Of a DNA stretch of 64,000 nt, positions 5,408 to 18,452 are shown one piece after another. Both the position numbers and the translations under genes were made by a program. The stretch spans positions 6,232 through 70,231 of the forward strand of contig WJOT01000078.1 of the NCBI GenBank assembly GCA_009619095.1, in the 5' to 3' direction. How positions within the stretch are numbered: the stretch's first letter is position 1; the number at the start of each line of letters is the position of its first letter. The notes below the pieces were generated by a model, which was not told where the DNA came from, did not search any database, and was given only the letters and a program-made list of their open reading frames with translations. The stretch comes from Clostridia bacterium (GTDB lineage Bacteria; UBA6262; WVXT01).

Positions 5408-6467
5408 CGTAACCTTCTATATGGTAATGGATTTGTTTTATCTCATATTTTTTGCGATAGAGTACTTTTTCTCTCTTAGGAATAAGAAGACTGAATAAAG
5501 TCCATATAATAACAGGACAAATTACAACCCCAATTGCCTTAGGAGTGGTAAGAATTTGGAATTTTCTGAATCCTTCTACCTGGACAACAAAAGTTACATA
5601 AAGCCAGAATAGACTATAAATTATTGTCCAGAACAAAAAAGTGCTCTTAAACTGTTCAGCAAAATATAGAATAACTTCAGGTGACTTAGTGGCACCAGCA
5701 GCGAGGAATGCTGATAATATGTCACCCCCGATAAAAATAAGTAAAAGAAGATATAAACCAATAGTCCAAACACTAACGGCTACACCTATATAAGTAACAA
5801 CACGAAAAGTTTGTTCGTAATCTCTTTTACCACCAAATAATTTCACAAAGAAATGGTAGACACCAGCATTAATAAAAAGACCTAATATGCCCAACAAGCC
5901 GACTAAAGAGAAAATGAAGAATAAAAACGCTACACCTATCAAAGCAACAGGTGAACCTATCGGCTTGGCGAGAGAAAATATTAATGTGGGTATGCAAATT
6001 GCCGCAAGCAGCAAACCTAATGTTACCATATAAAACTTTATCGGTGCGCCAAAACCTCCTTCCTGAGGTAATTCTTCAAAAAATTTCTTGGGATATACAA
6101 TTAATTCCCAGCATTTACGGAAAAAACCCTTTTCTGGAGTGAATATCCCATATTGCTCACGTGCGATTCCTTGACCATATTTTGTTCTTTTTGGTACTAC
6201 TCCTGTAGAACATTGATTGCAAACTAATTGTCCATCTTTTTCCTGAAGACAGTCAAAACAGAAATCGCGTTGACAAACTGCACAAAATCCCTGCGCTGGA
6301 CGGTCTGGATGGTTAGTACATACATCTTTTTGCAAAGACGGCCCTTTTTCTTCTTCGGGTTCAGGAAATTCGGGAGGTTCTGCCTTTTTCCTGAACGGTT
6401 CATAACACATCCCGCAATATAATGCGTCATCCTTATTCTCGTAACCACATTTTGGACATTTAATCAC
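5376..6467 (-). CDS. Membrane protein with N-terminal zinc-ribbon motifs and a Yip1-like multi-TM domain
   Basis: CPKCGYEN...CGMC and CAVCQRDFCFDC...CNQC ribbons are followed by 5-6 hydrophobic helices. The ORF overlaps the dnaX start by 32 nt. Confidence 0.5.
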   Translation of the reverse strand: MIKCPKCGYENKDDALYCGMCYEPFRKKAEPPEFPEPEEEKGPSLQKDVCTNHPDRPAQGFCAVCQRDFCFDCLQEKDGQLVCNQCSTGVVPKRTKYGQGIAREQYGIFTPEKGFFRKCWELIVYPKKFFEELPQEGGFGAPIKFYMVTLGLLLAAICIPTLIFSLAKPIGSPVALIGVAFLFFIFSLVGLLGILGLFINAGVYHFFVKLFGGKRDYEQTFRVVTYIGVAVSVWTIGLYLLLLIFIGGDILSAFLAAGATKSPEVILYFAEQFKSTFLFWTIIYSLFWLYVTFVVQVEGFRKFQILTTPKAIGVVICPVIIWTLFSLLIPKREKVLYRKKYEIKQIHYHIEGYDVLPGISTKI

Positions 6468-6526
6468 TCTGACCCCTTTTTGAGTCCTTCGAACCTAGTG
6501 AAGCCATCTAGATTTTAACTCGGACT

Positions 6527-6949
6527 TCAACTTTTAAAATCTAAATAATCTTTAGCCCAATTTATATCAACCGCCTGATTATTCTTAGGGGCGTTAATTC
6601 TGAGGTGTATCCTAGTCTTACCAGCAAACAATCTAGGAGGTAGGAAATAAATTTCTCCATTATCTGGACAGTTAACTGCAATGCAATCTATATCGTTGCC
6701 ATACGATTTTTGTACAACTCTACCTCGAGGACGTATGCTAAAAGTTTGTAAGTTCACAGATAGCCGCCCTTTTCTTATCCTAACGCATTTCACCTGGATT
6801 TTTAGAAATTTATTGTCTCTTTCGATAACTAAATCATATCGTTCGTTACCACCTGATGGAAATAAAACAACATAACCTAGTTCAACGAATTTCGCAGCTA
6901 CCTCGAATTCCGCATTTACAGCTGTTTGAATATTAGGTTTCATGCTCAC
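6527..6949 (-). CDS. PD-(D/E)xK nuclease-superfamily-like small protein (Hjc/YraN-like motif arrangement)
   Basis: Motifs EFEVAAKFVELGY ... ERYDLVIERDNKFLKIQVK (E...D...QxK). The GGAGGTGA RBS begins 3 nt after the encoded CCA of the upstream tRNA-Ala. Confidence 0.4.
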   Translation of the reverse strand: MSMKPNIQTAVNAEFEVAAKFVELGYVVLFPSGGNERYDLVIERDNKFLKIQVKCVRIRKGRLSVNLQTFSIRPRGRVVQKSYGNDIDCIAVNCPDNGEIYFLPPRLFAGKTRIHLRINAPKNNQAVDINWAKDYLDFKS

Positions 6950-6956
6950 CTCCCCA

Positions 6957-7032
6957 TGGTGGAGCGGAGGGGACTTGAACCCCTGACCTCTTCCGTGCGA
7001 GGGAAGCGTTCTCCCAACTGAACTACCGCCCC
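6957..7032 (-). tRNA. tRNA-Ala (anticodon CGC). CCA end is encoded.
   Basis: Cloverleaf GGGGCGG-TA-GTTC..GAAC-G-CTTCC-CTCGCAC-GGAAG-AGGTC-AGGGG-TTCAAGT-CCCCT-CCGCTCC-A-CCA. It has the G3:U70 alanine identity pair. Confidence 0.8.
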
Positions 7033-7038
7033 GTCATC

Positions 7039-7110
7039 TTCTGCTCCGCAGAAGGTAGTCGCTCCGATTGGTCGGAGCGTATATAAACGCAACCTAAAGG
7101 TTGCGACTAC
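7039..7110 (-). terminator. Hairpin cluster downstream of the AsmA-family gene (CTTCTGC-TCC-GCAGAAG, CGCTCCGA-TTGG-TCGGAGCG, GCAACC-TAAA-GGTTGC). Probable terminator region that is also a member of the CCGAT-hairpin repeat family.
   Basis: Three consecutive perfect stem-loops lie between the stop at 7140 and the tRNA. Confidence 0.4.
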
Positions 7111-7139
7111 CGATTTGCGATTACCGATTTGTGGCTATT

Positions 7140-9461
7140 TTATTTCTTAAAAAGTTTCTTTAAGCCTTCCTCTATTCCCTTTTTCAAAATATCTTTGCCA
7201 GCCTTTTCTGCTGCCTTCTTAGTTAATTTCCCCCAGTCGAGATTAACTTTTGGGTCTTCAAATGTTCCGGCAATCTTAAATGGCACAGTTACTCTTCCTT
7301 CAGAGTCACCAGCATATTTGACAAAGTCTCCACCAGAGTATTCTTTGGTAAACTTAATATCACCCTTTATATCCTGCCTCTTCTTAACCAGATCAACATT
7401 GCCGGAACAATAAGCATCCAGTTTGTCTCCACCTTCTGTCTTCACATCTGTAAGATATACCTTCCCTTTTTTAATGGTGAGTTTCCCGCTTGCCGATTGG
7501 AAACTTGTCTCTTTAAGTTCGGGAATTTTGGCAGCAGAAGCAATCTTGTCCAGAATCTTTATTCCCTTTATCTTCATATCTTTTATCTCCATGAGACCTG
7601 AACCATTCAATTTAGAAAAATCTTTTCCCCTGCCAGAAATCTTTATCTTTCCAGAAGCTATAGCATAAAACTGTCCCTTCATTTTCCTGCCCATAGATTG
7701 GATAACCTTATGTATATCGAGATTTTTGACGTCACTATCGAGATTGAATTTAAGGGTATCCAAAGAAGAGCCTTTAAGGTCGGCGGAGAGAGAGCCTTTC
7801 ATACTACCGTCGTACGCTGATAGAGAGAGAAGTTTCAGTTTTAGTATCGATTTAGCAAGGTCCAGTTTTGCCGAACAATTGGATATCTGATAGTTCTGAA
7901 AGGATAGTTTCTTGAGCTTGATTTTCCCTGAGACCGTAGCATCCGGTGGAATCCCAACTTTAGGAGATGGCTTCTCTTTTACAGCTGGTGGCTCTTGTTT
8001 CGCCTTCTTTGCTGCAGGCTTTCCCTCTTTTGGCTTTTTCGGTTTCTCCGCCACTTTCACTTCCATTGTCCCTATATCCAGATTAAAATTGACCTTCGGC
8101 TTTTTGAAATCCAGAATATTTCCTGAATATTTTAAATTGGACCTGTCCAGTTTTACGGTCATTTCTTTCTGGATTGACTCTATATTTTTTACGCCTATCT
8201 TTCCGGAAATATTTAGTGACTCCGGTACACCTGAAATCTTTGTCTCCCCTGCCACTATTCCCGCAAGCCCATAGTCCTTGACGAGAGGGACTAACTCCTG
8301 GAGCGATTTCATATCAAATTTTTCCAGAGAAACTTTAAGATTGAGTCTCTTCTCTTCCTTAAGCCCTACTACCTTCCCGGAGGCAGAAGCTTTCATCTCA
8401 CCAAGAGCTATTGATATTGAGTTCAACTTCAGAATGTTATTGTGTTCAAGGACAATATCAATTCCCATTCCCCCGTCTATACCAGAAGGCTTATGGAATA
8501 AGTCCTTAAACAATACCTCGACTTTTTTAATACCAATATTACCTTTAATCTTGATTCTGTTCAAATTCCCGGAGATATCTGCGTTTATATCTGGCTCACC
8601 AGACATTAGAAAATCTCCGGAGAAAGGAAATGTCTTGGAAAGCTCCTCCAGCGCAAAATCTTCACTTTTTATATTAATTGCAAAAGAGAGTTTCTCTGGC
8701 TCCATAAACTTTTCCACACTCCCGGTAGCTCCTATTCCTACACCAGCTATAGTTGCTAAAGCTTTCTTAATCTTGATACTCTTTTCTTTTATGTCAACAC
8801 TTCCTTTAAAGGCAAAAGAACCCTCCAATTTCTCCTTTGCCACATCAAAAGAGGCTTCCACAAAGAAAGGTGAAACAAGCGAAATGCCGTAAACACTCAG
8901 GTTAATGTTCTTCAAATCTGCCGATAGCTTCTGTGGCGTCCTGTCTACAAATTTCACTTCTCCCCCGGATATGGTTACTTTCGATACCAGGAAAGAGAAG
9001 GCTATTGGCTTAACTTTTGCCGGCAGACCCTTTTCTGCCTTTTCTTCTTTCTTTGCCTCAGGTATTTTCTCTACCATAAGGTCGCTGAAATTAAATGAGC
9101 CGTCCGCTTTTCTTATAATATTTATCTTGGGAGAGATGAGCGTAACTTCGCTTATGGAAATCTGCTTTTTAAGAAGGGGGAGAAATTTTGGCCTTACCAG
9201 AAACTGTCCTGCCTGCACAAAGGTCCCTTTGTCGAATGATGGCTTCTGGGAAATTTTGAAACCTTTGACTCTAAGTCCTCTGAGACCAACGGAGATACTT
9301 TCTATCTCTACCTGCCTGTGGAGGACTTCAGACATCCTGGTTATCAACATAGCTTTCACCTTTGCCGGAGGAAATGCAATCCTTAAAGCAATTGTTCCTC
9401 CCACAAAGACAAATAGCGAAATAAGAAAAAGAATAAGCAGAATTTTCTTGAATTTTTTCAT
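7140..9461 (-). CDS. AsmA-family outer-membrane assembly protein with a Lys/Pro-rich linker
   Basis: 773 aa with an N-terminal signal anchor MKKFKKILLILFLISLFVFVGG and repetitive beta-rich AsmA-like body. The internal KPKKPKEGKPAAKKAKQEPP segment is low-complexity. Confidence 0.6.
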   Translation of the reverse strand: MKKFKKILLILFLISLFVFVGGTIALRIAFPPAKVKAMLITRMSEVLHRQVEIESISVGLRGLRVKGFKISQKPSFDKGTFVQAGQFLVRPKFLPLLKKQISISEVTLISPKINIIRKADGSFNFSDLMVEKIPEAKKEEKAEKGLPAKVKPIAFSFLVSKVTISGGEVKFVDRTPQKLSADLKNINLSVYGISLVSPFFVEASFDVAKEKLEGSFAFKGSVDIKEKSIKIKKALATIAGVGIGATGSVEKFMEPEKLSFAINIKSEDFALEELSKTFPFSGDFLMSGEPDINADISGNLNRIKIKGNIGIKKVEVLFKDLFHKPSGIDGGMGIDIVLEHNNILKLNSISIALGEMKASASGKVVGLKEEKRLNLKVSLEKFDMKSLQELVPLVKDYGLAGIVAGETKISGVPESLNISGKIGVKNIESIQKEMTVKLDRSNLKYSGNILDFKKPKVNFNLDIGTMEVKVAEKPKKPKEGKPAAKKAKQEPPAVKEKPSPKVGIPPDATVSGKIKLKKLSFQNYQISNCSAKLDLAKSILKLKLLSLSAYDGSMKGSLSADLKGSSLDTLKFNLDSDVKNLDIHKVIQSMGRKMKGQFYAIASGKIKISGRGKDFSKLNGSGLMEIKDMKIKGIKILDKIASAAKIPELKETSFQSASGKLTIKKGKVYLTDVKTEGGDKLDAYCSGNVDLVKKRQDIKGDIKFTKEYSGGDFVKYAGDSEGRVTVPFKIAGTFEDPKVNLDWGKLTKKAAEKAGKDILKKGIEEGLKKLFKK

Positions 9462-9511
9462 CTTTTAACCTTTCCTTTTAATAAATTGCCTTCCTTTCGG
9501 AAGGACTCCAA

Positions 9512-10363
9512 TTACATCCCCGATACCATTTTCTCAAGTTTTTCTTTCTCACCTGGTTCCATTCTATATGTGTGTTTCTCTTCGGGAAACTTCTTTTCCT
9601 TTATATCCTGTATATATTTCCTGAATGCCTCTGTAATATCGTCACTCAAAGAAGCGTATTTTTTCACAAATTTAGGAGTAAATGCTTCAAACAATCCCAA
9701 CATATCACCAACAATCAGCAGTTGACCATCGCAATCAATTCCTGCGCCAATACTTAAAACAGGTATTTGACTTCTTTCGGTGATAATCTTCCCTACTTCT
9801 GGCGGTATAGCCTCAAGCAAAATAGCAAAAGCACCTGCTTCTTCAATCGCTTTTGCATCCAAAATTAACTCCATGGCAGTTTGAGCAGTTCTACCCTGAG
9901 CTTTGAATCCTCCTAACTGACCTGAACTTTGAGGAGTCAATCCAATATGACCCATTACTACCATTCCTGCATTTACAATCCCTTTAATTCGATTGATTAC
10001 TCTCCTTCCACCTTCAAGTTTGATAGCATCCGCACCTGCTTCTTTATAGAATCTTCCGGCATTATATATTGCCTTCTCTACAGATTCCTGATAAGACATA
10101 AATGGCATATCGCCAATAACGAAAATATTGGGAGCTCCCCGGCGCACAGCTTCCGAATGAACAATCATCTGCTCCATTGTTACTGGTATGGTACCTTCAT
10201 ATCCATAAACAACCATACCCAGCGAATCGCCAACCAGAAGCATATCCAAACCGGCTTTTTCCGCAAAAGTAGCAGTAGGATAATCATAACATGTGAGAAA
10301 CGTAATCTTTTCCCTGTCTTTTTTCATCTTCAAGAAATCAAGCACGTTCTTTTTCTTATCCAT
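9512..10363 (-). CDS. panB: 3-methyl-2-oxobutanoate hydroxymethyltransferase
   Basis: KITFLTCYDYPTATFAEKAGLDMLLVGDSLGMVVYGYEGTIPVTMEQMIVHSEAVRRGAPNIFVIGDMPFMSY matches the PanB core. Confidence 0.85.
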   Translation of the reverse strand: MDKKKNVLDFLKMKKDREKITFLTCYDYPTATFAEKAGLDMLLVGDSLGMVVYGYEGTIPVTMEQMIVHSEAVRRGAPNIFVIGDMPFMSYQESVEKAIYNAGRFYKEAGADAIKLEGGRRVINRIKGIVNAGMVVMGHIGLTPQSSGQLGGFKAQGRTAQTAMELILDAKAIEEAGAFAILLEAIPPEVGKIITERSQIPVLSIGAGIDCDGQLLIVGDMLGLFEAFTPKFVKKYASLSDDITEAFRKYIQDIKEKKFPEEKHTYRMEPGEKEKLEKMVSGM

Positions 10364-10439
10364 TTTACTGTCTCCTTATTCTCGAATATTGCCAAATGTA
10401 GAGGCTCCGATAAATCGGAGTCCGTTACAAATCGGGTCG

Positions 10440-10503
10440 TAAAAAAATGACTCTGACCTTTTTTTACTTCTTTCACGTAATTAAGTATTGTGTCCCCGGA
10501 ATT
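10440..10503. repeat. 55-bp miniature repeat (R55), copy 1: TAAAAAAATGACTCTG..CCTTTTTTT..TCACGTAATTAAGTATTGTGTCCCCGGAATT
   Basis: Near-identical copies at 12025-12081, 16134-16191 and 18294-18351. Confidence 0.7.
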
Positions 10504-10529
10504 CTTTTTTATTCATATTGATTTTCAAG

Positions 10530-10936
10530 TTAAAGATCATTTTCATTTTTCATATAACTCATTCTGTCTGTTTGTCCATCGTCATACAATATTTTTATTT
10601 CTTCATTATCAAGATCTATCTCACCCTTGACAACTGTTCGCTTCTCATCAATAATAGTATTAAATATTTCATTTTCGAATTGAGCCTCTCCCCGATCATT
10701 ATAAGTAATTTTCCCAGTATACAAAACCACATGTTCTATCCGATCAAGGAATCCATCCCAGACTACTTTTACTAATTTAAGTTCTCCCTCACTCGTTCTT
10801 TTAGTATTAAGTACAGCTATTGTATCGGGAGGGGATTCGATTGAAAAGTCAGTAATGAAGTGAATTAAAAATATATCTACAATTAGAAATATTACAAATG
10901 TTAAAATACAAACATAAAGTAATTTTTTTTAAGCAT
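10530..10936 (-). pseudogene. Small membrane protein gene interrupted by a frameshift at an A8 homopolymer (plus-strand T8 at 10923-10930)
   Basis: ATG at 10936 (MLKK...) falls out of frame at the A8 run. With 9 A the reading continues as MLKKKLLYVCILTFVIFLIVDIFLIHF... into the 66-aa ORF 10530-10730. Confidence 0.35.
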
Positions 10937-10957
10937 TATATTATTATTTAATCTAAC

Positions 10958-11030
10958 GTTTGAGCTCAGCTGCCAAAAAGCGTAGCTTTTTGGTCAGCTG
11001 CAGCGCCTTGTTAGATTTCATTTATTTTCA
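10958..11030 (-). terminator. Long imperfect hairpin downstream of gene 11035-11850 (CAGCTGCCAAAAAGC-GTAGC-TTTTTGGTCAGCTG)
   Basis: Inverted repeat directly 3' of the stop on the minus strand. Confidence 0.35.
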
Positions 11031-11034
11031 CATA

Positions 11035-11850
11035 CTACATCATATCTGCCATTGCTTTGTTAATCTCTATTACAATATCATTTTTGAAAATAATTTCTAC
11101 ACCATAACAAAGATGCTGGCCTGGTTTTGGGGCAGGGCCATCCGTATAATCATAATCCCATAAATTATTTTCTTTTTTGTGAGGGTTTCCCAGCAAAGCT
11201 AAAACCTCATATTTATTCATTCCTTTTTTAATAGAATGTACCTTTTTATTGAATTCAATAAAATCCATTTTTATTCCTTCCTTCAAAATTAACTCAACTT
11301 CGTTAGATTCTATGGAAAATAATTGATCTTTTTTAAACTCCATATCTTTACTTAATTTTGAAGATTCTTCTACAAATAAATCACTCATTATTCTGAATCT
11401 GTATGTGCCTGGTAATAAATCATATTCGTGATAATATAAACCTTTAGTCCATGATGTCCTAAATTTATTATTTTTATATGCAATATTCAGTAACTTTAAC
11501 TGATAATTCTGATTTGGTTGCAGCAAAACAGCAACCGCTGAAATAGGCTTTTTAAAGTCTCTTGGTACTTTTCTTGCAATTGTTCTAGTTGGATTTATTC
11601 TATTATGATTTTCATCAAATATAAATAGATCAAATGGTTTGTCGATACCTAAATAAACAGCAACTAATTTATTTTTCATATTTATTAAATTAATGGATAT
11701 CCCGGAATTATTTATTGGTGATAATTCTATTTTAATTGGTATTTTTTGTCCCATTGAATTTATCTCCTTGTCATTATTATTATTTGTACAATTTGATACA
11801 AAAAACAAAAAAAGAAATGTTAAAAATAGATATTTATTGAAATATTTCAT
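11035..11850 (-). CDS. Lipoprotein, extremely AT-rich, with a C-terminal BamE/SmpA_OmlA-like domain
   Basis: Signal MKYFNKYLFLTFLFLFFVSNC. The C-terminus GMNKYEVLALLGNPHKKENNLWDYDY matches the BamE motif GMTKxQVxxLLGxP....W.Y. Confidence 0.5.
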   Translation of the reverse strand: MKYFNKYLFLTFLFLFFVSNCTNNNNDKEINSMGQKIPIKIELSPINNSGISINLINMKNKLVAVYLGIDKPFDLFIFDENHNRINPTRTIARKVPRDFKKPISAVAVLLQPNQNYQLKLLNIAYKNNKFRTSWTKGLYYHEYDLLPGTYRFRIMSDLFVEESSKLSKDMEFKKDQLFSIESNEVELILKEGIKMDFIEFNKKVHSIKKGMNKYEVLALLGNPHKKENNLWDYDYTDGPAPKPGQHLCYGVEIIFKNDIVIEINKAMADMM

Positions 11851-11879
11851 TACATTTTTAATCTAACGCCGACATCTTC

Positions 11880-12024
11880 GGTTCTCCCCTATCCTCCCAG
11901 AACCTCAGAGCCGGCCCGCTCACTGCCGCTGTCCCTCGGACCCGGGGCGCTCACCATCTCGCGCCCATCGCTACCACGGAGCTCCTTATTCGTCGCTCCA
12001 GCGACCCTCCTGTGTATCAAACGG
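11880..12024 (-). other. GC-rich conserved about 145-nt element, copy 1, in the 5' leader of gene 11035-11850
   Basis: About 85% identical to 12740-12887 and far GC-richer than flanking DNA. Contains conserved hairpins GGGCG-N12-CGCCC and GTCGC-TCCA-GCGAC. Confidence 0.5.
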
Positions 12025-12081
12025 TAAAAAAATGACTCTGCCCCTTTTTTTCACGTAATTAAGTATTGTGTCCCCGGAATT
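12025..12081. repeat. R55 miniature repeat, copy 2
   Basis: See 10440-10503. Confidence 0.7.
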
Positions 12082-12090
12082 CTTCCCCCG

Positions 12091-12669
12091 CTATTTCAAT
12101 CCGCTTGATTGACTTGTTAGATTTTTAATATTTGCACTCGCATCAACTTTTCTTGCAAGATGGACATAAAAATAGATAGCTTTTTGTGGAGAATAAAGAA
12201 ACCATCTATCAATCGTTGCATACTCAATAATTTGATCTGATCCAGATAAATATATAGGAAAATTATCATTTCTGAAAAGGCATACTAAATTACTTTTTTC
12301 CTCATCCAATAATCTCTGATCTGATTTGTTTATCCCCTTACTGAACAATAGCCATAATTTAATCTTTCCTGCATCAATAGCTTTATAATTATCTTGATTT
12401 TTTAATTTGATCTCTTCATGCGATTCAAATCTTATCCAATTAATACTAATATCACCTTCAGGATGTTTTAGATATTCTCCACTCCCATATATATTTTTAA
12501 CCTTTTCAATTGGTGTTTCTATACCCCATTGATAAACTCCATTGTATGTTTGAGCGATTTTTGGCGAAAAAGGTTGCCAAACATATTTTAGCAAAACAAT
12601 TATTAATACAATAACTAAAATAAGTAAAATTAAAATAAATTTAAATATTTTTGAGAATATTATTTTCAT
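12091..12669 (-). CDS. Hypothetical membrane-anchored protein, extremely AT-rich
   Basis: N-terminal TM helix MKIIFSKIFKFILILLILVIVLIIVLL. No recognisable domain. Confidence 0.45.
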   Translation of the reverse strand: MKIIFSKIFKFILILLILVIVLIIVLLKYVWQPFSPKIAQTYNGVYQWGIETPIEKVKNIYGSGEYLKHPEGDISINWIRFESHEEIKLKNQDNYKAIDAGKIKLWLLFSKGINKSDQRLLDEEKSNLVCLFRNDNFPIYLSGSDQIIEYATIDRWFLYSPQKAIYFYVHLARKVDASANIKNLTSQSSGLK

Positions 12670-12739
12670 TTATTTTAAATCTAACAATTAATAGACGAAC
12701 TTTTGGTTTGTATTAATTTTTTTCTAAAATTTAGGATTC

Positions 12740-12887
12740 CTCTTCGGACTTACCCTTCTCTCCCCTGTCCTCAGGGCCGGCCCGCTCACTGCCGCTGTCC
12801 TTCGAACCCGGGGCGTTCACCGTCTCGCGCCCGTCGCTACCCGGAGCTCCTTATTCGTCGCTCCAGCGACCCCTCCTGTGAATCATT
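12740..12887 (-). other. GC-rich conserved element, copy 2, immediately 3' of tRNA-Ser(GGA) and in the 5' leader of gene 12091-12669
   Basis: See 11880-12024. Confidence 0.5.
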
Positions 12888-12974
12888 CGGAGAGGGTGGG
12901 ATTCGAACCCACGGAACGGTTTCCCGTTCATACGCTTTCCAGGCGTACTCCTTCGTCCACTCGGACACCTCTCC
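12888..12974 (-). tRNA. tRNA-Ser (anticodon GGA), type II with a long variable arm
   Basis: GGAGAGG-TG-...anticodon loop CTGGAAA...long variable arm...GGGTTCGAATCCC-CCTCTCC-G. G73 discriminator. CCA is not encoded. Confidence 0.8.
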
Positions 12975-12988
12975 AGCAAACTACCATG

Positions 12989-13673: not shown

Positions 13674-15665
13674 CTATTCCTCCTTCTTCTTGAGGATGAT
13701 TATCTCCACCCGTCTATTCAGGTCCCTTCCCCTCACAGTCCTATTTGAGGCAATTGGACTCCCTTCTCCCCAGCCTTTTACACTGAGCCGAGCGGGGTCG
13801 ATTTCTCCTGTTTCTACCAGATAGTCATAGACTGCTTTAGCCCGCATCTTCGATAATTTCTGGTTATAGGCGCTGCTTCCCACGCTATCGGTATGTCCCT
13901 CAATAGAGACCTTATTGAGAGGGTACTCTTTGAGCACTCTTATCGCCTGCTGTATAGCAACGTAACCATCTTCACGAAGAACAGATTTACCTATGCCGAA
14001 AAGGACCTTTACCGAGAAAGTAATCTTTAATCCTCGCTCCTCTTTTTCTACTTTTATCCCTTTCCCAAGTTTGGGTAATGGCATTTCCACCTTCAATTTT
14101 TTAGAAGAAGAGGTTCCCTTATTCCAGGCAACGTCATAGACGACTAATTTTACCCTATATTCCCCAGCAGGAACAGTTGCCTTGTAGTAATCGTCTTTAC
14201 CATCCCAGACAATAGATTGGGGAAGTGGCTCTTCGGCCTTAAAAGTTTTCGCCAGCTTCCCCTGTCTATTGTATATCTCAACCATCCAGCTTCTTATCTC
14301 GTTGGCATCTTGCGCTTTAAGCTGGAGAGTCACTGTATCATCTATGCCATCGCCATTGGGAGAAAATGCTCTTGTAGTAATAATAATCTCAGCCCTGGGT
14401 AAAGTATTGTCAACTAAAGTCGGTGTCCATTCAGACTTTGCAGGCAATCTCCCCCACTCTTTTGTCTCTATCTGACAAGTATATAGTCCATCAGGAACCA
14501 GATTGCCTTCTGCATCAGTTCCATCCCAAGCGATAGAGATAGGTAAAATCTCCCCGGACTTTCTTAATACAATCGCACCGTCTTTATCTTTGATTCGAAA
14601 TTTCCACTTTTCTACTTTCTCTAAATTCTCACCCGCTATTACCAGGTCAGTGACATCGTCCATTCCATCATTATTGGGAGAGAAAACCCCGGGATCAGCC
14701 TGTAATATAAGCTTTACCGTGGGGAGTCTTCCTGCCTTACCAAATCTGTATCCCAAAGAGACCATATGAGTTGTTCCCAGAGAAGCATACGGCGCCCACG
14801 CATAATTCGTTAGAAGTCCCCTCCAACGTAAGCCTGCGCCCACTCTCAACCCGGCTAAATTGCTTAGCCCTGTCTTTTGTAAGTCATACTTATATCCTGC
14901 TCTAACTGCAAAAGTCTCCAACAAAACATGCTCAATCCCTAACGAGAAATTAAAATCTCCCTCTATAGGTTTATTTGCATCGAGGGCAATTGAAAGGTCG
15001 ACTCTCTCCTGGGAAAATTTAATCTTACAAGCTAAACCAGCTTTGATATTTATAGGCAGCTTCTCCCCCCTCATCTTTGTCCCCAGGTTCTGCCCCACCA
15101 ATCCAAAGGAAAATGTACGGTTAGGAGTGGAAAGCATAATTCCCACATCAGAGGAAAAAGCAGAAGCTTTATTTCGGTCGATTCTACTCTCTAATCCCAT
15201 TAAGTTAAAGCCGAAACAGAAGGACTTTGACACGGGGAGACCATAAGCCAAACCTCCATAAATATCGTATACATTAAACTTGCCCTGGGGCGCGTCGCGG
15301 CTTATTTTGTCCATTCTGCCCATATGGAGATAAGAGACATTAATCCCCAGAGTTCCCAAAGATATAGGGTGGATGTAACCCAAAAATTCATGGCTTATAT
15401 TGCCCAGCCAGAAATTGTGCATTGTCTCTAATTCTGGATTAAAAACGAAAGCCAATCCTGCCGGGTTGCAGCGTATTGCGCTCACATCATCAGCTAAAGC
15501 GCAGAATGCTTCTCCCATTCCCATAGCCCGGGTGCCAATGTTCATTTTCAAGAAGTTCCCTGTGGTAGTGCCTACACCTGATGAGGAGAAAACTGAATTT
15601 GGAAAATATGCTATGAAAAGAAGAATAATTAAGAAAACAACGCCAGAACCGAATAACTTCTTCAT
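13674..15665 (-). CDS. Outer-membrane protein with an N-terminal FadL/PorV-like beta-barrel, two FSPNGDG Ig-like repeats and a C-terminal OmpA peptidoglycan-binding domain
   Basis: Signal peptide, then GTRAMGMGEAFCALADDVSAIRCNPAGLA (FadL/PorV-type N-terminus). FSPNNDGMDDVTDL and FSPNGDGIDDTVTL repeats follow. C-terminus EGHTDSVGSSAYNQKLSKMRAKAV...NRRVEI is an OmpA_C domain. Confidence 0.65.
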   Translation of the reverse strand: MKKLFGSGVVFLIILLFIAYFPNSVFSSSGVGTTTGNFLKMNIGTRAMGMGEAFCALADDVSAIRCNPAGLAFVFNPELETMHNFWLGNISHEFLGYIHPISLGTLGINVSYLHMGRMDKISRDAPQGKFNVYDIYGGLAYGLPVSKSFCFGFNLMGLESRIDRNKASAFSSDVGIMLSTPNRTFSFGLVGQNLGTKMRGEKLPINIKAGLACKIKFSQERVDLSIALDANKPIEGDFNFSLGIEHVLLETFAVRAGYKYDLQKTGLSNLAGLRVGAGLRWRGLLTNYAWAPYASLGTTHMVSLGYRFGKAGRLPTVKLILQADPGVFSPNNDGMDDVTDLVIAGENLEKVEKWKFRIKDKDGAIVLRKSGEILPISIAWDGTDAEGNLVPDGLYTCQIETKEWGRLPAKSEWTPTLVDNTLPRAEIIITTRAFSPNGDGIDDTVTLQLKAQDANEIRSWMVEIYNRQGKLAKTFKAEEPLPQSIVWDGKDDYYKATVPAGEYRVKLVVYDVAWNKGTSSSKKLKVEMPLPKLGKGIKVEKEERGLKITFSVKVLFGIGKSVLREDGYVAIQQAIRVLKEYPLNKVSIEGHTDSVGSSAYNQKLSKMRAKAVYDYLVETGEIDPARLSVKGWGEGSPIASNRTVRGRDLNRRVEIIILKKKEE

Positions 15666-15673
15666 ACCACCTC

Positions 15674-16045
15674 CTACTTTAGAACGACGACCTTTACGGT
15701 CTTCGAAGATTTATCGATTTTGAGATTGACCAGGTATACTCCGTTTCCCACAACCTCGCCCTTATCATTCTTCCCATACCATTTTATAGTATCTTTCTTT
15801 TTTGTACTGTCTTCTTCCAATGTCTTTACAAGTTCTCCATTGATTGAATAGATTCTAATAGTTGCTCCTTCTTCTTTTACTTCATAGCGTATCTCGGTAT
15901 ACTGATCTTGAGCGTCTGAGGCTTCTGGATTGAACGGGTTATTCCATTCAATTCTTAGAACAATCCCATTGCCTGCTCCCAAAGGAAAAGCAAGAAGAGT
16001 AACTACCAATAGAGTGCAAAAAATGACTTTACCCAAATTTCCCAT
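15674..16045 (-). CDS. Small secreted protein consisting essentially of a T9SS type-A C-terminal sorting domain (FlgD-Ig-like)
   Basis: Signal peptide followed by WNNPFNPE...IRIYSINGELVKTL...WYGKNDKGEVVGNGVYLVNLKI, the Por-secretion CTD pattern. Stop is 9 nt upstream of the OMP gene start. Confidence 0.6.
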   Translation of the reverse strand: MGNLGKVIFCTLLVVTLLAFPLGAGNGIVLRIEWNNPFNPEASDAQDQYTEIRYEVKEEGATIRIYSINGELVKTLEEDSTKKKDTIKWYGKNDKGEVVGNGVYLVNLKIDKSSKTVKVVVLK

Positions 16046-16133
16046 TTTTTCTCACCAACCTTTCTCAAATTTCGCATTTCTGTTACGCAAAGCGGAACAC
16101 CGGGGCGCTCAAGCGTCTTTTGCCCGTCGCTAG

Positions 16134-16191
16134 TAAAAAAATGACTCTGATCCCTTTTTTTCACATAATTAAGTATTGTGTCCCCGGAATT
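16134..16191. repeat. R55 miniature repeat, copy 3, inserted between tRNA-Ser(CGA) and a remnant of the GC-rich element
   Basis: See 10440-10503. The flanking 16085-16133 is homologous to part of the GC-rich elements. Confidence 0.7.
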
Positions 16192-16199
16192 AAATCAAA

Positions 16200-16286
16200 C
16201 GGAGAGAGGAGGATTCGAACCTCCGATCCCGAAATCGGGATAGCGGTTTTCGAGACCGCCCCGTTCAACCACTCCGGCATCTCTCC
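16200..16286 (-). tRNA. tRNA-Ser (anticodon CGA), type II
   Basis: GGAGAGA-TG-CCGGAGTGGTTGAACGG...anticodon loop CTCGAAA...variable arm ATCCCGATTTCGGGAT...GGAGGTTCGAATCCTCC-TCTCTCC-G. Confidence 0.8.
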
Positions 16287-16292
16287 ATAGAA

Positions 16293-16739
16293 CTATTTGC
16301 CCTTAAAAAATTCGAAATGACTTTTAATTTCTGGATGGGCTTCCAAATAGTAAATCTCAAATACTCTAAACGGCACAAAGAGTATAATTCCGAGCATAAT
16401 CCCGATTGCCAACTTCCCTATCTCCCAGCGCGTAATCATAAGATAGATAATATAGAGAGTTGTCAGAATCATTATCGAGTGGCTTATCTGGGCAGGCATC
16501 GTCCTGGAAGACCAATCGAAAATAAAAAATCCCCCTGCTCCATAGAATAGAAGGAAAGGGATGGAAATATTCATTAATATTTTCTTCCCAAAAATCAGAG
16601 CAAATACTACAAACATCTGGATGAGAGAAGGAATATCCGTCATAACCCAGGAAATGAAATTGTATTTAAGAAAATAGAGGAATATAAACCCCGTCCATGC
16701 AACACATATCCCATTTGCAAAAATTAAAAAAAATTTCAC
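16293..16739 (-). CDS. Hypothetical integral membrane protein (4 TM)
   Basis: 148 aa, strongly hydrophobic. Flanked by tRNA genes. Confidence 0.45.
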   Translation of the reverse strand: MKFFLIFANGICVAWTGFIFLYFLKYNFISWVMTDIPSLIQMFVVFALIFGKKILMNISIPFLLFYGAGGFFIFDWSSRTMPAQISHSIMILTTLYIIYLMITRWEIGKLAIGIMLGIILFVPFRVFEIYYLEAHPEIKSHFEFFKGK

Positions 16740-16760
16740 TCCTGATCCCTATAAATTTAA

Positions 16761-16832
16761 AGGGCTCAGAGGGAATCGAACCCTCACACCAGGGTCCGCA
16801 ACCCTGTGCTCTATCCGTTGAGCTATGAGCCC
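16761..16832 (-). tRNA. tRNA-Arg (anticodon GCG)
   Basis: GGGCTCA-TA-GCTC-AACGGATA-GAGC-A-CAGGG-TTGCGGA-CCCTG-GTGT-GAGGG-TTCGATT-CCCTC-TGAGCCC-T. Confidence 0.7.
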
Positions 16833-16856
16833 ATGACTTTACGCTCTGCCACTTTG

Positions 16857-16901
16857 GGCGACCACCCCGATACATCGGGATAAACTGCGTGTCGCCCCTA
16901 C
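16857..16901. repeat. Nested-hairpin element GGGCGACCACCCCGATACATCGGGATAAACTGCGTGTCGCCCCTAC (module Z of the CCGAT repeat family)
   Basis: Also present at 19017-19061 (duplicate copy) and 40991-41036. Confidence 0.55.
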
Positions 16902-16932
16902 ATTAACACGGAACTATTGCTCTGCTACTCCT

Positions 16933-17298
16933 TTATTTATTTAACATTTCTTCTATTTTATCTAAAAGGACCTTCTTTCCGAATGGTTTGCTTATGAAAT
17001 AGCTCGGGCCTTCTGGCTTTAAGGTCTCGTATAACTCTCTGTCTTTAACTAAACCCGAATTGAAGATTACTGGCAGATTGAGAAATTCAGGCTTCTCCCT
17101 TAACCTTTTAATACTCTTATAGCCGCTCTGCCCGGGCATAATCACATCACAGATGATTAAGTCAGGTCTCTCTTTTTTGACTTTTTCTATCAAATCCAGC
17201 CCATCTCTAGCCAGGATTACTAGATATTTATCTTTGAGTAAACTTCCCAGTAACTCTCTCACATCCTCTTCATCATCTGCTACAACAATCTTTTTCAT
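16933..17298 (-). pseudogene. Truncated copy of the response-regulator gene (second REC domain only), created by the tandem duplication
   Basis: Identical to the C-terminal 121 aa of 19093-19911. It begins at an internal Met. Confidence 0.45.
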
Positions 17299-17825
17299 TG
17301 TGGCTGTAGCCTCAAAAAAGCAGAAGCTTTATTTCGGTCGATTCTACTCTCTAATCCCATTAAGTTAAAGCCGAAACAGAAGGACTTTGACACGGGGAGA
17401 CCATAAGCCAAACCTCCATAAATATCGTATACATTAAACTTGCCCTGGGGCGCGTCGCGGCTTATTTTGTCCATTCTGCCCATATGGAGATAAGAGACAT
17501 TAATCCCCAGAGTTCCCAAAGATATAGGGTGGATGTAACCCAAAAATTCATGGCTTATATTGCCCAGCCAGAAATTGTGCATTGTCTCTAATTCTGGATT
17601 AAAAACGAAAGCCAATCCTGCCGGGTTGCAGCGTATTGCGCTCACATCATCAGCTAAAGCGCAGAATGCTTCTCCCATTCCCATAGCCCGGGTGCCAATG
17701 TTCATTTTCAAGAAGTTCCCTGTGGTAGTGCCTACACCTGATGAGGAGAAAACTGAATTTGGAAAATATGCTATGAAAAGAAGAATAATTAAGAAAACAA
17801 CGCCAGAACCGAATAACTTCTTCAT
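17295..17825 (-). pseudogene. Truncated N-terminal (170 aa) copy of the FadL/PorV-like-OmpA OMP gene, created by the tandem duplication
   Basis: Identical to the N-terminus of 13674-15665. It diverges at the duplication junction (17314/17315) and terminates after 6 codons. Confidence 0.5.
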
Positions 17826-17833
17826 ACCACCTC

Positions 17834-18205: not shown

Positions 18206-18293
18206 TTTTTCTCACCAACCTTTCTCAAATTTCGCATTTCTGTTACGCAAAGCGGAACACCGGGGCGCTCAAGCGTCTTTTGCCCGTCGCTAG

Positions 18294-18351
18294 TAAAAAA
18301 ATGACTCTGATCCCTTTTTTTCACATAATTAAGTATTGTGTCCCCGGAATT
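18294..18351. repeat. R55 miniature repeat, copy 4 (within duplication copy B)
   Basis: Identical to 16134-16191. Confidence 0.7.
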
Positions 18352-18359
18352 AAATCAAA

Positions 18360-18446: not shown

Positions 18447-18452
18447 ATAGAA

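What the first reader, a model, noticed from the sequence alone, without database searches (positions are those of the whole stretch)
10440..12974. Extremely AT-rich islet of three small membrane/lipoprotein genes next to tRNA-Ser(GGA), organised as repeated modules with GC-rich leader elements
Read on the minus strand from tRNA-Ser(GGA), the region is: [tRNA]-TCATTCGG junction-[GC-rich about 148-nt element]-[gene 12669..12091, TM protein]-[R55 repeat]-TCAAACGG junction-[GC-rich element copy, about 85% identical]-[gene 11850..11035, lipoprotein with BamE-like C-terminus]-[hairpin]-[A8-frameshifted TM-protein gene]-[R55 repeat]-panB. Each intact gene has GTTAGAT(T)TAAA immediately before its ATG. 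The TCAAACGG motif at 12017-12027 mimics the sequence flanking the tRNA 3' end. This suggests tandem site-specific integrations or duplications of a small cassette at a tRNA-Ser 3' flank. The genes are far below the local GC content, consistent with foreign origin. The GC-rich elements preserve two hairpins (GGGCG-N12-CGCCC and GTCGC-TCCA-GCGAC) and could be leader RNAs.
Basis: partly seen in the sequence, partly recalled or inferred. Interest (0 to 1): 0.65.

Follow-up and report, generated by a model that had tools for sequence, protein, structure and literature searches.

The report
Integron gene cassettes amid tRNA-trailer repeats
The AT-rich islet is a small, decaying array of integron-type gene cassettes with no integrase nearby, sitting in the spacer between a serine tRNA gene and panB. 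The two GC-rich "leaders" do not belong to it: they are resident copies of a structured repeat that trails many tRNA genes in this lineage, built like the RtT repeats behind E. coli tyrT.

Summary
Three genes of 27-30% GC lie between tRNA-Ser(GGA) and panB, with two GC-rich copies (64% GC, 85% identical) and two copies of a ~60-70-nt repeat (R55).

The interpretation needs changing. GTTAGAT before each ATG is the integron core site GTTRRRY. ATCTAAC at gene ends is its partner RYYYAAC. The "hairpin" at 10951-11016 is a textbook attC. Close relatives (94-98% identical flanks) carry other cassettes at this locus, separated by 76-130-nt attC sites, and sequence identity breaks at the core sites. 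The cassette proteins are near-orphans.

The window's array is degenerate: one intact attC, two truncated ones, gene 2 fused from two cassettes, gene 3 frameshifted. I found no integron integrase in the window or in ~1 Mb of lineage contigs.

Both GC elements and one R55 occur in the same order in cassette-free relatives, so they are resident, not cassette parts. Their core has over 200 copies in the contigs retrieved from this lineage, compensatory base changes, sense orientation and no Rfam match. Behind tRNA genes of nine anticodon types the units end with a 17-20-nt copy of that tRNA's 3' end, as in E. coli RtT repeats. Their function is unknown.

Verdict: known kinds, with an unusual repeat family.

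The parts
12888..12975 (-). tRNA-Ser(GGA) gene. It is the upstream anchor of the hypervariable spacer.
   Evidence: ARAGORN 12887-12975; Rfam tRNA 12888-12974, 55.7 bits.
12734..12887 (-).
   Evidence: 64% GC; covariance-model hit 12797-12882, 97 bits. The same unit followed by the full direct repeat GAATCCCACCCTCTCCG is seen in L133, L148 and L119.
12679..12733 (-). Conserved 55-nt junction segment ending in the core site GTTAGAT (12679-12685). It behaves like an attI or the R' end of a lost attC: its left part is shared by the window, L021, L018 and L141, while the cassettes to its right differ.
   Evidence: Alignment A7. Identity runs through ...CGTCTATTAATTGTTAGAT and then breaks in L018. 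L141 diverges slightly earlier, after ...CGTCTATTA, where it continues TTAGGGT.
12085..12684 (-). Cassette 1: gene 1 (ORF 12091-12669, 192 aa, N-terminal membrane helix, no family match) plus the 5' half of its attC (R'' ATCTAAC at 12116-12122, then the L'' arm). The site is truncated at R55.
   Evidence: There is one homologue among 5.8 billion proteins, 99% identical, in L021. In L021 the attC runs about 34 nt longer.
12024..12084 (-). R55 copy 1, a resident repeat module. Every cassette array at this locus ends at the left edge (GAATTCCGGGG) of an R55.
   Evidence: R55 is present between the two GC elements in cassette-free L148/L149. It also follows both tRNA-Ser(cga) genes at 16133-16191 and 18293-18351.
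11875..12023 (-). Its 3' end is cut at ...CCGAAGA and joined to the remnant of an attC.
   Evidence: Covariance-model hit 11931-12017, 99 bits. The R55|TGTTTGATACACAGGAGG+core arrangement is seen in L148, L149, L119 and L018. The 3' part is 100% identical to L021 477-526 and L119 2789-2838.
11861..11874 (-). The last 14 nt of an attC (TGTCGGC + R' GTTAGAT). This is what remains of the attC that precedes gene 2 in L017/L018.
   Evidence: L018 has the full site ATCTAAC...GCAGCTGATGCCGGCGTTAGAT in front of the same gene. Homology with the window starts at GATG(C/T)CGGCGTTAGAT.
11035..11850 (-). Cassette 2: gene 2 (271 aa). It is an in-frame fusion of two ancestral cassettes: an N-terminal domain protein, and a small lipoprotein with a BamE-like domain. 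The fusion junction lies near 11270-11285. An internal ATCTAAC lies at 11302-11308.
   Evidence: In L020 the two halves are separate ORFs (160 aa and 117 aa, the latter with lipobox LLPGC) split by a 130-nt attC. BamE match 20.9 bits, below threshold. pN/pS is 0.30-0.37, which indicates a real coding gene. Only 3 homologues exist.
10951..11016 (-). The one intact attC site (66 nt): R'' ATCTAAC, unpaired spacer, L''/L' arms GCTGCAGCTGACC.../...GGCAGCTGAGC with two extrahelical bases on the R''/L'' arm, and R' GTTAGAT.
   Evidence: It is the only such palindrome in the 64-kb window (fold energy -32 to -33 kcal/mol). It aligns with five further attC sites of relatives.
10530..10950 (-). Cassette 3: gene 3 (ATG at 10936, stop at 10530), with the reading frame broken at the A8 run 10923-10930. 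It has an N-terminal membrane helix and no attC of its own. It abuts R55 copy 2.
   Evidence: No homologue exists among 5.8 billion proteins. The segment 10506-10991 is absent from L017/L018. A second assembly (L001) has the identical sequence.
10439..10508 (-). R55 copy 2, the distal boundary of the array. It is followed by the panB leader (10364-10438) and panB (9512-10363).
   Evidence: The same R55|leader|panB arrangement occurs in L017, L021, L141 and L119.

Best explanation
The islet is a short array of integron-type gene cassettes without an adjacent integrase. [quoted passage not shown] In this window it has decayed to one intact attC plus remnants. The array sits inside the tRNA-Ser(GGA)-panB spacer of an uncultivated sediment/subsurface bacterium.

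Shown:
- Each gene unit starts at a GTTRRRY core site and ends at RYYYAAC.
- Intact units carry imperfect palindromes 66-130 nt long with the attC layout.
- Closely related strains carry different cassettes at the same place, and their sequence identity breaks at the core sites.
- The proteins are near-orphans with low GC.
- The window's array has been eroded by deletions. Half of gene 1's attC is gone. GC copy B is joined to the last 14 nt of an attC. Two cassettes are fused into gene 2. Gene 3 is frameshifted and has no attC.

Inferred:
- The cassettes were delivered by an integron integrase acting in trans, encoded elsewhere in the genome or since lost. Recombination would take place at the conserved ...TTG|TTAGAT site.
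- The present layout, with two R55 copies, arose by unequal or inter-strain recombination within R55 plus deletions.
- The cassettes are probably transcribed by read-through in the tRNA-to-panB direction.

The two GC-rich elements and R55 are not parts of the cassettes. They are resident units of a modular repeat family that is abundant in this lineage. The repeat core folds into two hairpins that are kept through compensatory changes, and it lies in the sense orientation between genes. Behind tRNA genes, the units end with a copy of the last 17-20 nt of that tRNA.

The same layout is seen in the RtT repeats behind E. coli tyrT/tyrV. I take the elements to be RtT-like tRNA-trailer repeats that spread by insertion or duplication at tRNA 3' ends and are co-transcribed with their neighbours. 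What they do is not known.
For: attC sites and cassettes:
- There is one intact attC, and the core 7-mers cluster in this region.
- Relatives have three to four attC sites and different genes at the same locus: L017/L018, L020, L021 and L141.
- Breakpoints fall at the core sites.
- The attC alignment shows shared R''/L''/L'/R' boxes and extrahelical bases on the R''/L'' arm.
- An attC-like scan of ~1 Mb of contigs from this lineage finds convincing sites only at this locus family, plus two isolated weaker palindromes (L027, L039).
- Positive control: the same motif, scanned against viral contigs, picked out a single contig with clustered palindromes. That contig encodes an integron integrase (TIGR02249, 330 bits against a cut-off of 265) 1.8 kb from the cluster.
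- The proteins are orphans, the genes have low GC and GC3, and gene 2 is under purifying selection.
- The definitions of CALIN and SALIN, and integrase-mediated insertion of cassettes outside att sites, come from PMC4889954 and bioRxiv 10.1101/2022.09.11.507474.

Resident status of the GC elements and R55:
- Cassette-free loci L148-L151 carry them in the same order.

The repeat family:
- 15 loci in 5 genomes (MAGs) and at least 119 metagenome contigs.
- 142 covariance-model hits and 204 nhmmer hits.
- 97.7% of cells paired, 12 of 17 pairs with changes on both sides, 0 of 500 shuffles as good.
- Same strand as the downstream gene in 110 of 121 clusters.
- 61 of 110 tRNA genes have a core downstream, and 40 of these also have a repeat of their own 3' end.
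- A clean presence/absence pair: L141 against L021.
- E. coli RtT has the same architecture.
Against: - No integron integrase was found among the larger ORFs (224 aa and more) of the 64-kb window scanned with Pfam. The only tyrosine recombinase seen in ~1 Mb of lineage contigs is XerC/D-like.
- The window itself has only one intact attC, so on its own it does not meet the CALIN rule of two or more sites.
- I could not run IntegronFinder's attC covariance model, so the attC call rests on motif, structure and comparison.
- The distal end of every array abuts R55 rather than a canonical R'. In L021 the spacing there does not fit a clean site-specific junction.
- The attI-like role of the 55-nt segment is inferred.
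- For the GC elements, G-U versus A-C counts (17 against 14) do not show which strand folds. Orientation bias is also confounded with replication direction. RNA-level function is therefore unproven.
- RF00391 (RtT) does not match the elements.
Confidence: 0.78

Rival explanations
1. One reading: the locus was built by tandem site-specific integration, or by duplication, of a composite module [GC leader - gene - R55] at the 3' flank of tRNA-Ser.
For: - GC copies and R55 copies alternate with genes.
- Copy B is preceded by CCG+TTTGATACACAGG, which resembles the tRNA end plus trailer.
- The tRNA-Ser-panB gap is a true integration hotspot. L119 holds a different island there, with toxin-antitoxin genes and a large serine recombinase.
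- GC units behind tRNAs are bracketed by repeats of the tRNA 3' end.
Against: - Cassette-free relatives already have tRNA | GC unit | direct repeat | R55 | GC unit | panB. The GC copies and R55 therefore predate the genes.
- Gene units are delimited by attC and core sites, not by copies of the tRNA end.
- The three genes share no similarity, and their relatives occur in other combinations.
- No integrase lies nearby.
Confidence: 0.07
2. The GC-rich elements are cis-regulatory leader RNAs, such as a riboswitch or attenuator, that control the islet genes.
For: - They lie upstream of genes 1 and 2 on the same strand.
- Their hairpins are conserved, with compensatory changes.
- Elsewhere the core often lies 25-300 nt upstream of a gene on the same strand.
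Against: - The downstream genes are unrelated to one another (lysC-like, ilvB, argG, serA, ndk, L25, tmRNA, tRNAs).
- Many copies are tandem or lie between tRNAs.
- The elements are present where there are no cassettes.
- Copy A is separated from gene 1 by the junction segment, and copy B is fused to an attC remnant by a deletion.
- There is no Rfam match.
Confidence: 0.05
3. The tRNA-linked GC units are non-autonomous mobile elements, or scars of them, moved by a tyrosine integrase that crosses over in the T-loop. Under this model the repeat of the tRNA end is the attL/attR identity block, not part of a functional RNA.
For: - The repeats start in the T-loop and run to the tRNA's 3' end, as in class II (T-loop) integrases such as Ms6 (PMC1762012).
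- There is a clean insertion/empty-site pair (L021 against L141) that differs by exactly one unit plus one repeat.
- Tandem arrays occur, as in L121.
Against: - tRNA genes of nine anticodon types are occupied by near-identical units. That would require many retargeted attP sites.
- No integrase was found among 48 ORFs within 4 kb downstream of tRNA+unit sites, nor in the lineage sample, apart from XerC/D.
- The units carry long-range helices with compensatory changes, and an internal segment complementary to the repeat. A pure scar would not be expected to maintain these.
Confidence: 0.2
4. The three genes are ordinary lineage-specific genes, and the palindromes are terminators or REP-like repeats that resemble attC by chance.
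For: - All three genes are co-oriented with their neighbours.
- Gene 2 is under purifying selection.
- No integrase was found.
Against: - Six or more sites share the R''/L''/L'/R' boxes, the spacing and the extrahelical bases.
- None of these sites is followed by a T-run terminator tail.
- Such sites occur only at this locus in ~1 Mb of lineage DNA.
- Gene content swaps at G|TT.
- GC is 12-17 points below that of the neighbours.
- The motif retrieves a true integron elsewhere.
Confidence: 0.04

Closest known systems
CALIN and SALIN: clusters of attC sites, or single attC sites, lacking an integron integrase (Cury et al. 2016, PMC4889954; Loot et al., bioRxiv 10.1101/2022.09.11.507474)
   Same: - Co-oriented small ORFs, each followed by an imperfect palindrome bounded by RYYYAAC and GTTRRRY.
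- Cassettes of unknown function.
- No integrase within 10 kb.
- Cassette content differs between strains.
- Signs of erosion by deletion.
   Different: - The window keeps only one intact attC. Relatives keep 3-4.
- The array is embedded in tRNA-trailer repeats, and its distal end always abuts the R55 repeat.
- Whether the genome encodes an IntI is unknown.
Complete chromosomal integron (intI - attI - Pc - cassettes)
   Same: - attC-bounded cassettes.
- A conserved sequence left of the first core site that behaves like attI, with a fixed left side and variable cassettes to the right.
   Different: No intI gene or pseudogene lies next to it: the neighbours are the GC element, tRNA-Ser and a PASTA-domain gene. 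No promoter could be assigned.
RtT RNA and the 178-bp repeats behind E. coli tyrT/tyrV (Rfam RF00391; gene rttR)
   Same: - GC-rich non-coding units directly behind a tRNA gene, often in tandem.
- Each unit ends with the last 17-20 nt of that tRNA, starting in the T-loop (19 nt in E. coli, repeated every 178 nt).
- Each unit contains an internal stretch complementary to the start of that repeat (GGGGAAGGAT in E. coli; GGGATTCGAA and variants here).
   Different: - There is no sequence or covariance-model similarity.
- Here the family follows tRNA genes of nine anticodon types rather than one.
- It has an optional 2-hairpin core that also occurs upstream of protein genes and tmRNA.
- It shows presence/absence polymorphism between strains.
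Mosaic intergenic repeats (BIME/REP of enterobacteria, BOX of pneumococcus, Correia elements). This comparison rests on my own knowledge of these families.
   Same: - High copy number and an intergenic location.
- Modular, mosaic build with hairpin modules and tandem sub-unit expansion.
- Orientation bias relative to genes.
   Different: - Different sequences.
- A strong link to tRNA 3' ends, with duplication of the tRNA end.
- No associated transposase was identified. The window's TnpB at 46647-47837 was not linked to the repeats.
Class II (T-loop) tRNA-integrating elements, e.g. mycobacteriophage Ms6 (PMC1762012)
   Same: The direct repeat covers the tRNA from the T-loop to the 3' end, and integration regenerates the tRNA.
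   Different: - The inserts are only 120-330 nt long, non-coding and nearly identical across many tRNA species.
- No integrase lies nearby.

Membership tests
Integron cassette array (CALIN) | attC sites: R'' RYYYAAC and R' GTTRRRY as inverted partners, L''/L' arms, an unpaired central spacer, extrahelical bases on one arm, and a variable centre | tested here: met
   Window 10951-11016; L018 x3, L020 and L141; alignment A8. IntegronFinder's own attC model was not available, so the test uses motif, fold and comparison.
Integron cassette array (CALIN) | At least two attC sites clustered, with no integron integrase nearby (Cury et al. 2016) | tested here: inconclusive
   The window has one intact site plus two truncated ones (12085-12122 and 11861-11874). 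The same locus in L018 has three intact sites plus one half site. No integrase was found among the larger window ORFs (224 aa and more) scanned with Pfam.
Integron cassette array (CALIN) | Cassettes are discrete units exchanged at the G|TT of the core site, so content varies between strains | tested here: met
   The window and L021, L018, L141, L020 and L017 carry different cassettes. Identity breaks at GTTAGAT or TTAGGGT.
Complete integron | An intI gene (tyrosine recombinase with the IntI-specific insertion; TIGR02249) adjacent to the array | tested here: not met
   There is none in the 64-kb window. The only tyrosine recombinase in ~1 Mb of lineage contigs scores as XerC/D: 337 bits, against 150 bits on TIGR02249 (cut-off 265). 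The rest of the genome could not be searched.
Complete integron | A functional attI site and a Pc promoter upstream of the first cassette | not testable with these tools
   A conserved 55-nt segment ending in GTTAGAT behaves like attI in comparisons. The promoter scan was uninformative in this AT-rich DNA.
RtT RNA (Rfam RF00391) | A match to the family covariance model | tested here: not met
   RF00391 hits four E. coli units at 133-138 bits. It hits none of the E units in L021, L044, L059, L107, L121 or L135 at E <= 1, nor the window region at E <= 10.
RtT-like tRNA-linked repeat (by architecture) | A unit directly 3' of a tRNA gene that ends with a copy of that tRNA's last ~19 nt; units can be tandem | tested here: met
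   40 tRNA genes of nine anticodon types show it; tandem units in L121 and L086; E. coli for comparison. In the window, copy A keeps only GAATCC of the repeat.
tRNA-integrated genomic island | An island flanked by direct repeats of the tRNA 3' end, with an integrase gene at one end | tested here: not met
   The islet has no such flanking repeats (only the GAATCC vestige on the left, R55 on the right) and no integrase. A relative, L119, does carry a serine-recombinase island at this hotspot.
Known cis-regulatory or structured RNA families (Rfam 15) | A match to any curated model | tested here: not met
   Only tRNA and tmRNA models matched in the window and in 15 related loci.

The most novel reading that the evidence does not exclude
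The GC-rich units may be a previously undescribed class of small (120-330 nt), structured, non-coding mobile elements that insert specifically at the 3' ends of many different tRNA genes. On this reading each copy duplicates the tRNA from the T-loop to its end. Each copy also carries an internal segment that matches the particular tRNA it sits behind, which would act as a built-in target-matching 'guide'. The E. coli RtT repeats would then be a lone, immobilised relative of the class. R55 and these units might also create preferred landing sites for integron cassettes.
Probability: 0.2. Interest if true: 0.8.

Novelty: new variant of a known kind. Interest (0 to 1): 0.5.

Why it matters
For the islet, the result replaces a speculative 'tRNA cassette' model with a concrete and testable one. 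Integron cassettes can settle, vary between strains and decay in a chromosomal spacer near the replication origin of an uncultivated sediment bacterium. They do so without a neighbouring integrase, which adds a natural example to the recent evidence that cassettes spread outside integrons.

The repeat family is the more interesting by-product. It shows that the odd architecture of the E. coli tyrT/RtT repeats, whose origin and role have never been explained, is not a one-off. In this lineage the same design follows tRNA genes of at least nine anticodon types, shows compensatory base changes, and is present or absent between strains.

That gives a much larger comparative data set for asking two questions. 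How do such tRNA-trailer repeats arise? And do they act as RNAs?

Tried and rejected
- Rfam, at gathering thresholds and at permissive E-values, on the window and on 22 related loci found nothing but tRNA, tmRNA and E. coli RtT.
- Single-sequence folding of the GC copies and of the 271-nt stretch from gene 1's R'' to the next R' gave no convincing long attC. z-scores were -0.2 to -2.6, and the centroid structure kept only local hairpins. I therefore dropped the idea that R55 plus copy B form one giant attC.
- A coding reading of the GC copies was rejected. The frames differ between the copies, and the substitutions are not biased towards synonymous changes.
- G-U versus A-C counting to decide which strand folds was inconclusive (17 against 14).
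- The search for an integrase found none. It covered Pfam scans of the larger window ORFs, ORFs downstream of tRNA+unit sites, and a box-II motif scan of ~1 Mb. Only XerC/D and one serine recombinase (in L119) turned up. My first motif pattern was wrong and was corrected.
- A first test of complementarity between unit heads and tRNA ends was mis-registered and was redone.
- The promoter/terminator scan was uninformative in AT-rich DNA.
- Literature searches for tRNA-end repeat elements found no description of this family.
- Most of the 65 viral-contig pattern hits were chance matches. Only L205 was a real attC cluster.
- No structure prediction of the cassette proteins was attempted, because the alignments would have been too shallow to trust.

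Full report
**1. What is in the sequence**

Read on the minus strand, the region runs in this order:
- tRNA-Ser(gga), 12888-12975;
- a 154-nt GC-rich element (12734-12887, 64% GC);
- an AT-rich spacer ending in GTTAGAT;
- gene 1 (12091-12669, 192 aa);
- a ~60-nt repeat, R55 (12024-12084);
- a second GC-rich element (11875-12023, 64% GC, 85% identical to the first);
- GTTAGAT again;
- gene 2 (11035-11850, 271 aa);
- a 66-nt palindrome (10951-11016);
- gene 3 (10530-10936, reading frame broken at an A8 run);
- a second R55 (10439-10508);
- the panB leader and panB.

The three genes are 27-30% GC, against 42% for the window, and their GC3 is 18-21% against 33-44%. A second assembly of the same organism (L001) is identical across the islet, including the A8 run.

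**2. The gene units are integron cassettes**

GTTAGAT fits the integron core site GTTRRRY (R'). Its complement ATCTAAC fits RYYYAAC (R''). Five of the ten occurrences of these 7-mers in the 64 kb lie in this 1.7-kb region.

The palindrome between genes 2 and 3 reads ATCTAAC-AAGGC-GCTGCAGCTGACCAAAAAGC-TAC-GCTTTTTGGCAGCTGAGC-TCAAAC-GTTAGAT. It has R''/R' boxes, an unpaired spacer, L arms with two extra bases on the R''/L'' arm, and a short variable centre. That is the layout of an attC site (features as described in PMC4889954).

Genes 1 and 2 have only one and three homologues among 5.8 billion proteins, and gene 3 has none. The contigs holding those homologues turn out to be the same tRNA-Ser-panB locus in close relatives, with 94-98% identical flanks but different contents:
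- L018/L017 have three other small genes, each followed by a 76-82-nt attC (R'' [A/T]TCTAAC, L' GCAGCTGA, 7-8 nt, R' GTTAGA[T/A]), and then gene 2.
- L020 has gene 2 split into two cassettes by a 130-nt attC, followed by a further cassette.
- L021 has gene 1 alone, with a nearly complete attC.
- L141 has a single 300-aa cassette whose ends are TTAGGGT and CCCTAAC.
- L148-L151 have no cassette at all.

A 55-nt segment left of the first core site is shared by the window, L021, L018 and L141. Identity runs through ...CGTCTATTAATTGTTAGAT in the first three, and the cassettes differ beyond it; L141 diverges slightly earlier, at TTAGGGT.

Applying my attC criteria to about 1 Mb of contigs from this lineage found convincing sites only at this locus family, plus two isolated weaker palindromes (L027, L039).

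As a positive control I scanned the viral-contig collection with the motif derived here. It gave 65 pattern matches, and only one contig (L205) had clustered palindromes. That contig encodes a bona fide integron integrase 1.8 kb away (TIGR02249, 330 bits against a cut-off of 265).

Gene 2 evolves under purifying selection (pN/pS 0.30-0.37, against 0.14 for panB), so it is a real gene.

**3. The array in the window is eroded and has no integrase nearby**
- Gene 1's attC lacks about 34 nt that are present in L021, and it runs straight into R55.
- GC copy B is joined at ...CCGAAGA|TGTCGGCGTTAGAT to the last 14 nt of the attC that precedes gene 2 in L018.
- Gene 2 is an in-frame fusion of the two L020 cassettes. 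A ~250-nt deletion removed the stop codon, the attC and the second signal peptide.
- Gene 3 is frameshifted and has no attC.

Pfam scans of the larger window ORFs (224 aa and more) found no tyrosine recombinase. The window is the origin region of the chromosome, with dnaA, dnaN, parAB, gidB, recR and dnaX. In the ~1 Mb lineage sample the only tyrosine recombinase is XerC/D-like.

The element therefore fits the published CALIN/SALIN categories. These are thought to arise by loss of the integrase, by rearrangement, or by insertion of cassettes in trans (PMC4889954; bioRxiv 10.1101/2022.09.11.507474). I could not determine which route applies here.

**4. The GC-rich elements and R55 are residents of the spacer, not parts of the cassettes**

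In the cassette-free relatives L148/L149 the 540-nt gap reads tRNA-Ser | GC unit with core | GGATCCCACCCTCTCCG (a copy of the tRNA's 3' end) | trailer | R55 | TGTTTGATACACAGGAGG + GC unit | panB. This is the same order as copy A, R55 and copy B in the window. The cassettes were inserted around them.

All arrays end at the left edge of an R55: L141, L021, L017/L018, and both arrays in the window. R55 also follows both tRNA-Ser(cga) genes in the window.

The window can be read as an L021-like left part joined, within R55, to an L018-like right part that had suffered a deletion. This reading is an inference.

**5. What the GC elements are**

*Copy number.* A 25-mer from the conserved block found 15 loci in five genomes (MAGs), with seven copies in one MAG. 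A degenerate pattern then found at least 119 metagenome contigs, all from sediments. A covariance model of the ~66-nt core found only the two copies in the window, but 142 copies in 100 of those contigs. nhmmer found 204 copies in all.

*Structure.* The core forms a long hairpin, P1 (GUCGCU / GGAGCGAC-GAAUAA-GGAGCUCC / bulge / AGCGAC), and a second hairpin, P2 (GGGCGC-10 nt-GCGCCC).
- A second major variant replaces the inner P1 stem with GUCCCGAU-GAAUAA-AUCGGGAC.
- Overall, 97.7% of cells are paired and 12 of 17 pairs show changes on both sides. No shuffle or slid control comes close.
- The alignment was fitted to the model, and two variants dominate, so the number of independent events is modest.
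- G-U versus A-C counts do not identify the folding strand.

*Orientation.* The copies lie on the same strand as the downstream gene in 110 of 121 clusters, and mostly between co-directional genes. This is confounded with replication direction and with redundancy among contigs.

*Annotation.* No Rfam family matches.

**6. The link to tRNA genes**

In the sampled contigs, 61 of 110 tRNA genes have a core within 400 nt downstream. Forty of these also have a 10-20-nt (mostly 17-20-nt) direct repeat of their own 3' end, starting in the T-loop, 119-331 nt downstream. The tRNAs involved are Ser (four anticodons), Glu, Leu (two anticodons), Gln and Asp.

The basic unit is ~120 nt and lacks the core. 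The core plus a small hairpin is an optional insert of about 72-73 nt, which can itself be repeated.

A consensus fold of 12 basic units gives two helices with compensatory changes:
- a closing stem between a 5' segment (GGGAUUCGAA, GAGAUUC, AGGAUUC or GGGAUUUGAA) and the start of the terminal repeat;
- a long-range stem (GCCCGCGAAC/GUGAGCGGGC, which becomes GGCCGC/GCGGCC, GGGCGU/ACGCCC or CUAUCCUCAC/GUGAGGAUAG).

The 5' segment matches 9 nt of its own tRNA in 18 of 35 units. In cross-tRNA controls this happens in 9% of pairings. The window's two copies belong to the type in which the core replaces that segment.

L141 and L021 differ by exactly one unit plus one repeat at the tRNA-Ser end, so the units are discrete insertions or deletions. 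Genes downstream of these sites are ordinary housekeeping genes, and no integrase is among them.

**7. Closest precedent for the GC units**

In E. coli K-12, tyrV is followed by three 178-bp repeats. Each ends with the 19-nt 3' end of tRNA-Tyr, starting in the T-loop (AATCCTTCCCCCACCACCA). Each also contains GGGGAAGGAT, the reverse complement of that repeat's start. These are the RtT units (rttR, RF00391).

The architecture is the same as here. RF00391 does not detect the units of this lineage, however, so they are analogues or very distant relatives, not members of that family. T-loop-type integrases such as Ms6 produce a similar identity block (PMC1762012). That keeps a mobile-element origin open.

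**8. Source and context**

The window's proteins match an NCBI MAG labelled 'Clostridia bacterium' from a subsurface metagenome (contig of 80,975 nt). Cluster-mates at 90% identity or more are labelled Elusimicrobiota or just 'bacterium', so the label is unreliable. Outer-membrane genes (AsmA, OmpA) and a weak match to a type IX secretion sorting domain (Por_Secre_tail, 22.6 bits, below the cut-off of 27) in the window argue against a typical clostridial cell plan.

The same hotspot in relative L119 holds AbiE and nucleotidyltransferase toxin-antitoxin genes, a PEP-utilising/GGDEF fusion gene and a large serine recombinase.

**9. Verdict**

The islet is a new member of a known kind: integron cassettes without an integrase. 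The 'leaders' are copies of an undescribed, RtT-like tRNA-trailer repeat family.

Three points remain unknown: the function of the repeats, the enzyme that moves either component, and whether the cassettes are expressed.

Noticed in passing
window 15155-17314 and 17315-19474: A perfect (100% identical) 2160-bp tandem duplication. It carries the 5' part of the OmpA/UPF0164 gene, a FlgD_ig gene, R55 plus half a GC core, tRNA-Ser(cga), a 148-aa ORF, tRNA-Arg(gcg) and a response-regulator gene. Relatives L133 and L042 have a single copy, so it is either very recent or an assembly artefact.
   Followed up: partly
window 16133-16191 and 18293-18351 (minus strand): R55 sits directly behind both tRNA-Ser(cga) genes and is followed by only the 3' half of the GC core (TAGCGACGGGCAAAAGACGCTTGAGCGCCCCGG). 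In relative L138 the same tRNA is followed by a complete unit plus a 17-nt repeat of the tRNA end. These trailers are therefore remodelled between strains.
   Followed up: partly
window 46647-47837 (minus strand): A TnpB / IS605 OrfB-type gene (OrfB_IS605, Cas12f1-like TNB and HTH domains). I did not test whether its ends or guide RNA relate to the repeats.
   Followed up: no
window 52840-55781: dnaA and dnaN lie on the plus strand, while nearly all genes to their left are on the minus strand, together with parAB, gidB and jag. The window spans the replication origin, and the islet lies about 40 kb from it, co-oriented with replication.
   Followed up: partly
L119 3081-11250 (same hotspot in a relative): Between panB and the rest of the chromosome this strain carries AbiEii/AbiEi, a nucleotidyltransferase toxin-antitoxin pair, a PEP-utilising-enzyme/GGDEF fusion (862 aa) and a large serine recombinase (557 aa, CcrB/XisF-like). 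A different kind of island thus uses the same spot.
   Followed up: partly
L003, L014, L016, L004, L015 (upstream of lysC-like, ndk, L25 and other genes): A longer (~280 nt) conserved mosaic surrounds the GC core upstream of unrelated genes. It includes a 5' hairpin with compensatory variants (GCAUCCCGAU...AUCGGGAUGC against GCAUAGGAAUU...AAUUCCUAUGC). Another module...GATTCACATAAGGAGG, supplies the ribosome-binding site of argG, serA and ilvB and abuts the 5' end of tmRNA.
   Followed up: no
L205 (IMG/VR contig, 54% GC) 4358-11128: An unrelated complete integron in a contig classed as viral: an integron integrase (TIGR02249, 330 bits) next to at least three attC sites of the GTCTAAC...GTTAGAC type, with methylase and helicase genes nearby.
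   Followed up: partly
L062 1353-1441 and downstream: Behind tRNA-Ser(cga), a 39-nt insert made of the second half of R55 (AAAAAGGGGTCAGAGTCATTTT) is bracketed by a 13-nt repeat of the tRNA end. R55-type modules can therefore also sit between duplicated tRNA ends.
   Followed up: no
L021 260-300, L141 7490-7530, L146 8440-8480 and 8730-8760, L119 1450-1490: A further short repeat, GTAGGGGTCGCATTCATGCGACCCGATTTG (a hairpin), recurs on both sides of tRNA-Ser(gga) and in the panB leader of some strains.
   Followed up: no
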